Source: Escherichia coli (lineage in GTDB: Bacteria > Pseudomonadota > Gammaproteobacteria > Enterobacterales > Enterobacteriaceae). Taken from it: a DNA stretch of 64,000 bases. The stretch is taken from assembly GCF_029227855.1 (NCBI RefSeq), contig NZ_CP074356.1; one strand, given 5' to 3'. The translations under genes were made by a program, and so were the position numbers. Positions 3,130 through 3,420 of the stretch are shown one piece after another (position 1 is the first letter of the stretch; each line of letters begins with the position of its first letter). The notes under the pieces are model-generated. The model did no database searches, had not been told where the DNA came from, and was given only the letters and a program-made list of their open reading frames with translations.

Positions 3130-3420
3130 AAACTAGCTGAATGAAGGAGAGAATTTTAAAAGGTTGGGGGAGTAAACGGGATTATTAATTGCTTATTTGC
3201 ATATTAGTTACGAGGTTTCATAATCTTAGGAAATAAGTGATACATGCGCTTTTCGGACTAATGAAAACTGCCCCTGTGCTAAATTTGTAAACCCTGCGCC
3301 GACAGGCTTGCGTAAAACTCTTTTGGTGATAATGTGAGCCTTCCAAATCCAGACTATTCCGATTTGGGATCCATTTTGCCGTCCTGGCGTGTGTAACCGT
3401 TTTATCAAGGAATAAGCAGT

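What the first reader, a model, noticed from the sequence alone, without database searches (positions are those of the whole stretch)
3130..3420. No dinJ-yafQ toxin-antitoxin pair between yafL and yafK
The yafL-yafK spacer is about 290 bp with no ORFs. From memory, K-12 carries the dinJ-yafQ type II toxin-antitoxin operon in this interval, so this strain appears to lack it.
Basis: partly seen in the sequence, partly recalled or inferred. Interest (0 to 1): 0.3.

Follow-up and report, generated by a model that had tools for sequence, protein, structure and literature searches.

The report
Empty dinJ-yafQ site between yafL and dpaA
This E. coli strain has no dinJ-yafQ toxin-antitoxin pair between yafL and yafK (dpaA), but this is the common, apparently ancestral "empty" form of the site, found in about 38% of complete E. 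coli genomes and already described, so it is ordinary.

Summary
yafL (2371-3129, minus strand) and yafK/dpaA (3421-4161, plus strand) diverge across a 291-bp spacer with no credible gene. K-12 has yafQ and dinJ in the same interval.

The difference is a replacement, not a simple gap. Window 3057-3280 (224 bp) stands where K-12 has 830 bp. Those 830 bp carry yafQ, dinJ, the LexA box and a different yafL signal-peptide coding end. The two segments share no detectable DNA similarity.

Among 5,426 complete E. coli genomes, 3,340 carry dinJ-yafQ and 2,084 carry the empty-type segment. Together that is all 5,424 genomes that have the locus.

E. albertii, two other Escherichia species representatives, eight Citrobacter representatives and Phytobacter massiliensis have yafL next to yafK without the cassette. 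The empty state is therefore most likely ancestral.

The chromosome of a 99.96%-identical strain, JNEC-KY178, has no dinJ-yafQ elsewhere at megablast level. Published surveys already report the cassette in phylogroups A, B1, E and F and not in D, G and B2 (PMC6896753, PMC10790755).

Verdict: real, correctly interpreted, already known, low interest. The neighbouring slot holds an orphan hicB whose hicA toxin gene is deleted.

The parts
2371..3129 (-). yafL, a C40/NlpC-P60 peptidase. PGAP places the start at 3120; an in-frame ATG lies at 3129. The first ~24 codons (3057-3129) belong to the allele-specific segment.
   Evidence: ORF; Pfam PF00877 E=3e-33; RefSeq annotation of the 99.96%-identical genome; blastn to K-12 aligns 2363-3056 at 93.0%.
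3130..3420 (.). The yafL-dpaA divergent intergenic spacer, 291 bp. It contains no dinJ or yafQ, no credible ORF and no LexA box.
   Evidence: no Rfam match at E<=1.
3057..3280 (.). Empty-type allele-specific segment of 224 bp. It covers the yafL signal-peptide codons and the left 151 bp of the spacer. K-12 has 830 bp in its place (L001:5947-6776), carrying yafQ, dinJ, the dinJ promoter and LexA box, and a K-12-type yafL 5' end.
   Evidence: blastn breakpoints; no local similarity between the two segments (score 18 against a shuffle mean of 20); found in 2,084 of 5,426 genomes, 100 of them at >=99% identity.
3280..3281 (.). Right junction of the polymorphism. In K-12 the cassette ends here, 15 bp after the yafQ stop codon. 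The junction coincides with the upstream edge of the block conserved across genera (AAATTTGTAAAC...).
3281..3420 (+). Conserved dpaA/yafK upstream block, shared by empty and occupied alleles. It reads as a promoter (TTGCGT at 3308-3313, 16-nt spacer, TGaTAATGT with the -10 at 3330-3335; my own reading, an inference) followed by a leader of about 85-95 nt ending in the AAGGA Shine-Dalgarno sequence.
   Evidence: 98.6% identical to K-12. Long invariant stretches across 10 and then 42 Enterobacteriaceae sequences. The hairpins can pair but covariation does not exceed shuffles. No Rfam family.
3196..3224 (+). Sigma-70-like consensus match (TTTGCA-17-CATAAT) inside the allele-specific part, reading toward dpaA. 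It overlaps the Escherichia-conserved AT-rich block CGGGATTATTAATTGCTTATTTGCATATTA (3173-3202).
   Evidence: Consensus scan (a pattern match only); conservation.
3421..4161 (+). dpaA (yafK/ldtF), peptidoglycan meso-diaminopimelic acid protein amidase, a YkuD-fold protein.
   Evidence: 100% amino-acid identity to K-12.
1961..2314 (+). Neighbouring variable slot on the other side of yafL: an orphan hicB antitoxin gene with hicA deleted. It is not part of the dinJ-yafQ site.
   Evidence: Pfam HicB PF05534 E=1.6e-10; alignment to the intact hicAB of O145:H28; RefSeq annotation.

Best explanation
The interval is the unoccupied, ancestral-type allele of a two-state polymorphism at the yafL-dpaA divergent promoter region. 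This lineage is a phylogroup-D-like E. coli, nearly identical to strain JNEC-KY178, and it never received the dinJ-yafQ cassette.

The spacer therefore holds only the native regulatory DNA of the two flanking cell-wall genes. On the right is a dpaA promoter and leader conserved across Enterobacteriaceae (3281-3420). On the left is an Escherichia-specific AT-rich region that presumably carries the yafL promoter (3130-3280).

The other allele, seen in K-12, B1 strains and O157:H7, replaces 224 bp with 830 bp. Those 830 bp bring dinJ, yafQ, their LexA/DinJ-controlled promoter and a divergent yafL signal-peptide coding end. The segment has no transposon-like ends, so it most likely spread by homologous recombination through the flanking genes.

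What is shown: the absence, the breakpoints, the population frequencies and the outgroup gene order. What is inferred: the direction of change, the recombination route and the promoter assignments.

Inferred consequences for this strain: it has no YafQ ribosome-dependent mRNA interferase and no DinJ repressor. Its dpaA does not sit 155 bp downstream of an SOS-responsive operon on the same strand, as it does in K-12.
For: - K-12 order dpaA-yafQ-dinJ-yafL.
- Breakpoints at window 3056/3057 and 3280/3281 against K-12 L001:6777/6776 and 5946/5947.
- No DinJ or YafQ similarity anywhere in the 64 kb. The positive controls hit RelB PF04221 and YafQ_toxin PF15738, while the 94-aa and 60-aa spacer ORFs hit nothing.
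- Census of 5,426 complete genomes: 3,340 with dinJ-yafQ plus 2,084 with the empty-type segment equals the 5,424 genomes that have the locus.
- Outgroups with yafL next to yafK and no cassette: E. albertii, Escherichia sp. E1V33, the GTDB E. coli representative, eight Citrobacter loci and Phytobacter massiliensis. Only Escherichia sp. MOD1-EC7003 carries it.
- The empty spacer aligns along its whole length with E. albertii and partly with Citrobacter.
- Empty alleles span 77-100% identity over 224 bp. The occupied allele's non-coding 273 bp spans about 90-100%.
- Between K-12 and MOD1-EC7003, dinJ is 98.1% and yafQ 99.3% identical, while the flanks are 87.5-96.4%. This fits later lateral exchange of the cassette.
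- No terminal direct or inverted repeats at the ends of the 830-bp segment.
- The JNEC-KY178 chromosome shows one place only for a query made of the locus anchor plus a 239-bp dinJ/yafQ probe.
- Literature: yafQ-dinJ scored as gained in the E/B1/A lineage and in F (PMC6896753); YafQ prevalent in A, B1 and F (PMC10790755).
Against: - The direction of change rests on parsimony over outgroups, not on a tree-based reconstruction. One non-coli Escherichia species does carry the cassette at the same site.
- The YafL signal-peptide comparison does not settle the direction. The window-type and K-12-type N-termini are about equally similar to Citrobacter's, with 12-15 versus 11-12 identical residues.
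- The identity bands for the empty allele are lowered by an 11-bp deletion private to the window's allele class.
- The strain's plasmids, and divergent paralogues below about 85% identity, were not searched.
- The promoter assignments are pattern readings supported only by conservation.
Confidence: 0.85

Rival explanations
1. Secondary loss by allelic replacement. An ancestor of this lineage carried dinJ-yafQ and later swapped it for an empty allele by homologous recombination with an empty-site donor.
For: The region clearly recombines. yafL is only 93% identical to K-12 while the flanks are 97.6-98.6%. O145:H28, a relative of cassette-bearing O157:H7, has an empty and highly divergent allele at 91.8%. 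Combinations of the dinJ-yafQ state with rayT, hicAB or orphan hicB in the neighbouring slot are reshuffled among genomes.
Against: This adds steps that nothing requires. The lineage looks phylogroup-D-like, and D, G and B2 are reported as lacking the cassette (PMC6896753). The window's allele class is present in 100 genomes. No footprint of the cassette remains.
Confidence: 0.1
2. In-situ deletion of dinJ-yafQ from a K-12-like allele.
For: None beyond the absence itself. Toxin-antitoxin genes can be lost once the toxin is inactivated; one record has an IS1 interrupting the cassette (H31).
Against: The window has 224 bp at the site that do not exist in K-12 and cannot be produced by deleting from the 830-bp segment. 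The same 224-bp type occurs in E. albertii and other species.
Confidence: 0.02
3. The cassette is present but relocated elsewhere in this strain's genome or on a plasmid.
For: 12 of the 3,350 dinJ-yafQ places in the collection are on records labelled as plasmids.
Against: There is nothing in the 64-kb window. The 99.96%-identical JNEC-KY178 chromosome shows only the anchor match and no second place for the dinJ/yafQ probe. Counts of occupied and empty genomes sum exactly to the number of genomes with the locus.
Confidence: 0.03

Closest known systems
E. coli K-12 dinJ-yafQ locus (b0226-b0225), a type II toxin-antitoxin pair of the RelB/YafQ (RelE-superfamily) type
   Same: The flanking genes and their orientation are the same (yafL divergent, dpaA on the same strand). 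The 140 bp directly upstream of dpaA are 98.6% identical.
   Different: The window lacks the whole 830-bp segment: dinJ, yafQ, the LexA box and promoter, and the K-12-type yafL signal-peptide codons. It has 224 bp of unrelated sequence instead.
Empty yafL-dpaA alleles of B2 (ST131), O145:H28, E. albertii and Citrobacter
   Same: The gene order is the same and there is no cassette. They share the Escherichia-conserved block CGGGATTATTAATTGCTTATTTGCATATTA and the same dpaA upstream block.
   Different: The window's allele has an 11-bp deletion at 3243/3244. Over the 224 bp it is 88% identical to the ST131-like class, 92.9-94.6% to an intermediate class, and down to 77% for the most divergent class; only 100 genomes are >=99% identical.
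Other presence/absence polymorphisms of chromosomal toxin-antitoxin cassettes in intergenic sites. Examples: hicAB in the adjacent lfhA-yafL slot (this work), and ccdAB(O157) between folA and apaH (recalled from memory, not checked here).
   Same: A small two-gene cassette occupies a fixed intergenic site in some lineages and is absent in others, with no transposon ends.
   Different: Here the occupied allele also replaces the 5' coding end of a flanking gene (the yafL signal peptide), so the alleles differ by more than the cassette.

Membership tests
DinJ-YafQ type II toxin-antitoxin system | A RelB-family antitoxin gene (DinJ, Pfam PF04221) | tested here: not met
   tblastn of K-12 DinJ against the 64-kb window gives a best E-value of 0.74. 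The 94-aa and 60-aa spacer ORFs have no Pfam family, while the K-12 DinJ control scores E=1.3e-34.
DinJ-YafQ type II toxin-antitoxin system | A YafQ toxin gene (Pfam PF15738) immediately downstream of the antitoxin gene | tested here: not met
   tblastn of K-12 YafQ gives a best E-value of 1.8. The K-12 YafQ control scores E=1.6e-31. No megablast match elsewhere on the chromosome of the 99.96%-identical strain.
DinJ-YafQ type II toxin-antitoxin system | A LexA box or operator in the promoter upstream of dinJ | tested here: not met
   There is no CTG-N10-CAG motif in 3100-3430. K-12 has CTGAATAAATATACAG upstream of dinJ.
Ancestral (unoccupied) allele of an insertion site | Colinear with outgroup species that lack the insert | tested here: met
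   E. albertii, Escherichia sp. E1V33, the GTDB E. coli representative, eight Citrobacter loci and Phytobacter massiliensis have yafL-yafK adjacent without the cassette. The spacers align.
Ancestral (unoccupied) allele of an insertion site | No remnant or scar of the insert | tested here: met
   No local similarity between the window's 224 bp and K-12's 830 bp beyond shuffles. No protein-level trace.
Ancestral (unoccupied) allele of an insertion site | Tree-based ancestral-state reconstruction places the empty state at the root of E. coli | not testable with these tools
   This needs a recombination-masked core-genome tree. The only published support is PMC6896753, which scores yafQ-dinJ as gained.
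Transposon or site-specific mobile element, as the vehicle of the K-12 cassette | Terminal inverted repeats or a target-site duplication at the segment ends | tested here: not met
   The repeat finder on L001:5900-6830 gives only short, chance-level repeats, none at 5947 or 6776.
HicAB type II toxin-antitoxin system (neighbouring slot) | A HicA toxin gene paired with a HicB antitoxin gene | tested here: not met
   HicB is present (PF05534, E=1.6e-10). The hicA gene is almost entirely absent relative to O145:H28, whose HicA matches PF07927.

The most novel reading that the evidence does not exclude
The empty/occupied polymorphism may be more than gain of an accessory toxin-antitoxin pair. It may be a haplotype swap that rewires two peptidoglycan-remodelling genes.

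The occupied haplotype gives YafL a different signal peptide and a new promoter region shared with LexA/DinJ-controlled dinJ. It also puts dpaA 155 bp downstream of yafQ on the same strand, with no terminator-like site between them. Envelope remodelling by DpaA and YafL could therefore be SOS- or toxin-antitoxin-coupled in A/B1/E/F strains but not in strains like this one.
Probability: 0.2. Interest if true: 0.3.

Novelty: already known. Interest (0 to 1): 0.08.

Why it matters
It matters little on its own. dinJ-yafQ is a known accessory cassette, and its uneven distribution among E. coli phylogroups is published.

Three practical points follow:
- K-12 is the derived state at this site, so absence in a non-K-12 strain should not be scored as a deletion.
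- Results on DinJ-YafQ from K-12 (persistence, biofilm tolerance, RpoS control) do not apply to the roughly 38% of E. coli that lack it.
- The two alleles also differ in the yafL signal peptide and in what lies upstream of dpaA. This could be a small regulatory difference worth one experiment.

Tried and rejected
- Using the YafL signal peptide to decide which allele is ancestral. I first read the window's N-terminus as closer to Citrobacter's. A scored comparison shows both allele types are about equally similar, so I dropped the argument.
- Looking for homology between the two allele-specific segments. There is none above shuffles.
- Looking for transposon-like ends on the K-12 segment. There are none.
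- Testing for an RNA element in the conserved dpaA leader. Rfam gives nothing at E<=1. RNAalifold returns only an invariant 4-bp stem. My proposed hairpins pair in 87-98% of cells, but covariation does not exceed shuffles, with 60-105 of 500 shuffles as high. This is inconclusive and is treated as sequence conservation only.
- A first chimeric query (locus anchor plus the full 542-bp cassette), meant to read places_in_record for the near-identical genome, failed because genomes carrying lfhA, hicAB and dinJ-yafQ together outranked it. A shorter 239-bp probe worked.
- Treating the mechanical ORFs in the spacer as candidate genes. Rejected: the two larger ones are not conserved and have no family match, and none is annotated.
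- Assigning the phylogroup. This was done only indirectly. The nearest genomes at the locus include O166:H15 strains, and 586 genomes are >=99% identical in a core segment. 'Phylogroup-D-like' is my inference, not a typing result.

Full report
**What is in the window.**
- The first 10 kb read: lfhA (5-1882, +), a HicB-family gene (1961-2314, +), yafL (2371-3129, -), a spacer, dpaA/yafK (3421-4161, +), then yafJ, lpcA/gmhA, fadE, ivy and yafV.
- The first 50 kb are 99.96% identical to E. coli JNEC-KY178, NZ_AP045174.1, with 11 mismatches and 2 gaps.
- Pfam supports the flanking genes: NlpC/P60 for YafL and YkuD for DpaA.
- The spacer is 291 bp from the ATG at 3129, or 300 bp from the PGAP start at 3120.
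- Three mechanical ORFs touch the spacer (94, 60 and 37 aa, all TTG starts, minus strand). The 94-aa and 60-aa ORFs are broken differently in other strains' alleles, and they match no Pfam family. None is annotated in RefSeq.
- Rfam finds nothing between 1800 and 4300 at E<=1.

**Is the K-12 recollection right?** Yes. In MG1655 the order is dpaA (245065-245805, -), yafQ (245961-246239, -), dinJ (246242-246502, -), yafL (246712-247461, +). tblastn of K-12 DinJ and YafQ against the whole 64-kb window gives only noise, with best E-values of 0.74 and 1.8. The K-12 proteins used as controls hit RelB (PF04221, 1e-34) and YafQ_toxin (PF15738, 2e-31).

**Anatomy of the difference.**
- blastn aligns window 3281-4300 with K-12 at 98.6% and window 2363-3056 with K-12 yafL at 93.0%.
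- Between these, the window has 224 bp (3057-3280) and K-12 has 830 bp (L001:5947-6776).
- The K-12 segment runs from 15 bp beyond the yafQ stop codon through yafQ, dinJ and the 209-bp dinJ-yafL intergenic region, including the LexA box CTGAATAAATATACAG. It ends with the first 64 nt of yafL.
- The two segments share no local similarity above shuffled controls (score 18 against a mean of 20).
- The alleles therefore also encode different YafL N-termini. The window has MSFMSSFFHGRFLHPGVFSLCVLLPLLASA and K-12 has MSLPSIPSFVLSGLLLICLPFSSFASA. Both then continue TTSHISFSYAARQ.
- By the AXA rule, both would be cleaved after ASA. The mature proteins would then be orthologous and only the signal peptide would differ. 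This is an inference and was not tested.
- No terminal direct or inverted repeats mark the ends of the 830-bp segment.

**How common is each state?**
- Of 5,426 complete E. coli genomes, 5,424 have the yafL-dpaA locus.
- dinJ-yafQ DNA is in 3,340 genomes.
- The empty-type 224-bp segment is in 2,084 genomes.
- The two counts sum to 5,424, so this looks like a clean two-state polymorphism, 61.6% occupied and 38.4% empty.
- The window's own allele class (>=99% identity) is in 100 genomes. ST131-like alleles are 88% identical, and the most divergent class is about 77%.
- The window's allele has a private 11-bp deletion at 3243/3244 relative to the other empty alleles.

**Which state is ancestral?**
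- A scan of one genome per species with DpaA returned 80 loci.
- yafL lies next to yafK without DinJ or YafQ in E. albertii, Escherichia sp. E1V33, the GTDB E. coli representative, eight Citrobacter loci and Phytobacter massiliensis. Only Escherichia sp. MOD1-EC7003 has the cassette.
- The empty spacer aligns end to end with E. albertii and in blocks with Citrobacter and Phytobacter.
- Empty alleles are more diverse (77-100% over 224 bp) than the non-coding part of the occupied allele (about 90-100% over 273 bp). The 11-bp deletion exaggerates the first range.
- Between K-12 and MOD1-EC7003, dinJ is 98.1% and yafQ 99.3% identical, against 87.5-96.4% for the flanks. This fits later lateral exchange of the cassette.
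- The signal-peptide comparison does not help. Both types are about equally similar to Citrobacter's. This also suggests the K-12-type yafL 5' end is a diverged yafL end from some donor lineage rather than unrelated DNA.
- Taken together, the empty state is most likely ancestral. The occupied haplotype was probably introduced and spread by homologous recombination, with crossovers inside yafL and just upstream of the dpaA promoter block. This is an inference.

**Genome-wide absence.** I built a query from window 1-4161 plus a 239-bp probe spanning the dinJ/yafQ junction. The JNEC-KY178 chromosome ranked first, matched only query positions 1-4165 and showed one place in the record. The near-identical chromosome therefore has no dinJ-yafQ elsewhere at megablast sensitivity. 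Plasmids and distant paralogues were not covered.

**What the spacer does contain.**
- The right-hand 140 bp (3281-3420) are shared by both alleles and are strongly conserved across all 42 Enterobacteriaceae species representatives aligned.
- I read this block as a promoter: TTGCGT at 3308-3313, a 16-nt spacer, then TGaTAATGT. A leader follows, ending in AAGGA-N8-ATG. The consensus scanner did not call this promoter, so it rests on conservation alone.
- Two small hairpins can pair in most sequences, but covariation does not exceed shuffles.
- The right breakpoint of the polymorphism sits exactly at the upstream edge of this block.
- The left part contains an Escherichia-conserved AT-rich block (3173-3202) and one consensus promoter match on the + strand at 3196-3224. 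The yafL promoter was not located.
- In K-12, dinJ, yafQ and dpaA are on the same strand, with 155 bp and no terminator-like site between yafQ and dpaA. This is an inference.

**Literature.**
- Gonzalez-Alba et al. 2019 (PMC6896753) list yafQ-dinJ as present in all genomes of the E/B1/A lineage and, within the F/G/B2 lineage, only in F. They score it as an acquisition.
- PMC10790755 (mBio 2023) reports YafQ as highly prevalent in phylogroups A, B1 and F.
- Fiedoruk et al. 2015 is cited for uneven distribution of type II systems among phylogroups. I saw the citation only, and did not read the paper.
- The absence in a strain outside those groups is thus already documented.
- The nearest genomes to the window at this locus include O166:H15 strains, and 586 genomes are >=99% identical in a core segment. 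From this I infer, without typing, a phylogroup-D-like lineage.

**Verdict.** The site is an ancestral empty site rather than a loss. The alleles differ by a 224-bp versus 830-bp replacement that includes the yafL signal-peptide codons. The finding is already known and of low interest.

Noticed in passing
window 1883-2370 (hicB at 1961-2314): The slot between lfhA and yafL holds rayT in K-12 and ST131, and an intact hicA-hicB pair in O145:H28. Here it holds an orphan hicB. About 300 bp covering almost all of hicA are missing, hicB has a different 5' end, and the upstream palindrome-rich region (ACGATGACAT...ATGACGTCA) is kept. In the collection, 1,479 of 5,426 genomes have hicB at this slot. 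About 107 match the window's hicA-less form at >=95% identity, and about 1,372 match at 90-95%; every listed example of the latter is annotated with both HicA and HicB. Genomes carrying both hicAB and dinJ-yafQ around yafL also exist.
   Followed up: partly
window 3281-3420: The 140 bp upstream of dpaA/yafK are strongly conserved across 42 Enterobacteriaceae species representatives, including Escherichia, Citrobacter, Enterobacter, Klebsiella, Kluyvera and Yokenella. The block reads as a promoter with an extended -10 followed by a leader of about 90 nt with two small hairpins. There is no Rfam family, and covariation is not above shuffles. C. amalonaticus S646 has a 58-bp insertion in the first hairpin loop.
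   Followed up: partly
window 2363-3056 (yafL body): yafL is only 93.0% identical to K-12, while neighbouring core genes are 97.6-98.6% identical. O145:H28 and the GTDB E. coli representative are even more divergent, at 92% and 89% amino-acid identity. This suggests a locally high level of recombination or diversifying history at yafL.
   Followed up: no
window 5-1882 and upstream of the window (L002:1-5512): lfhA (the Flag-2 lateral-flagellar FlhA) is full length here, and the near-identical genome has Flag-2 genes (fliM/N-like, fliP, fliQ, fliR and a frameshifted flhB) immediately upstream. K-12 and ST131 keep only the lfhA/lafU remnants.
   Followed up: no
window 9801-41348: An island of about 31 kb lies between yafV and yafT/tRNA-Asp (42612-42688). 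It has IS remnants (an ISAs1-family pseudogene), an RHS core protein with a small downstream ORF, VgrG, two Hcp genes and a complete type VI secretion cluster (tssA, B, C, E, F, G, H, J, K, M, plus tagH and vasI).
   Followed up: no
window 2317-2344: A strong 12-bp hairpin (AGGTCGGATGCCGTGTGGCATCCGATTT) followed by a T-run lies between the convergent hicB and yafL genes. It is probably a shared terminator and is conserved in O145:H28.
   Followed up: no
window 3243/3244: The window's empty allele has an 11-bp deletion relative to all other empty alleles examined: ST131, O145:H28, L005, Escherichia sp. E1V33 and E. albertii.
   Followed up: partly
window 47142-47600; window ~51500-56800: An IS200C transposase gene lies between mltD and a methyltransferase gene. 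An rRNA operon (16S, tRNA-Ile, tRNA-Ala, 23S, 5S, tRNA-Asp) lies further on. Both are ordinary backbone features.
   Followed up: no
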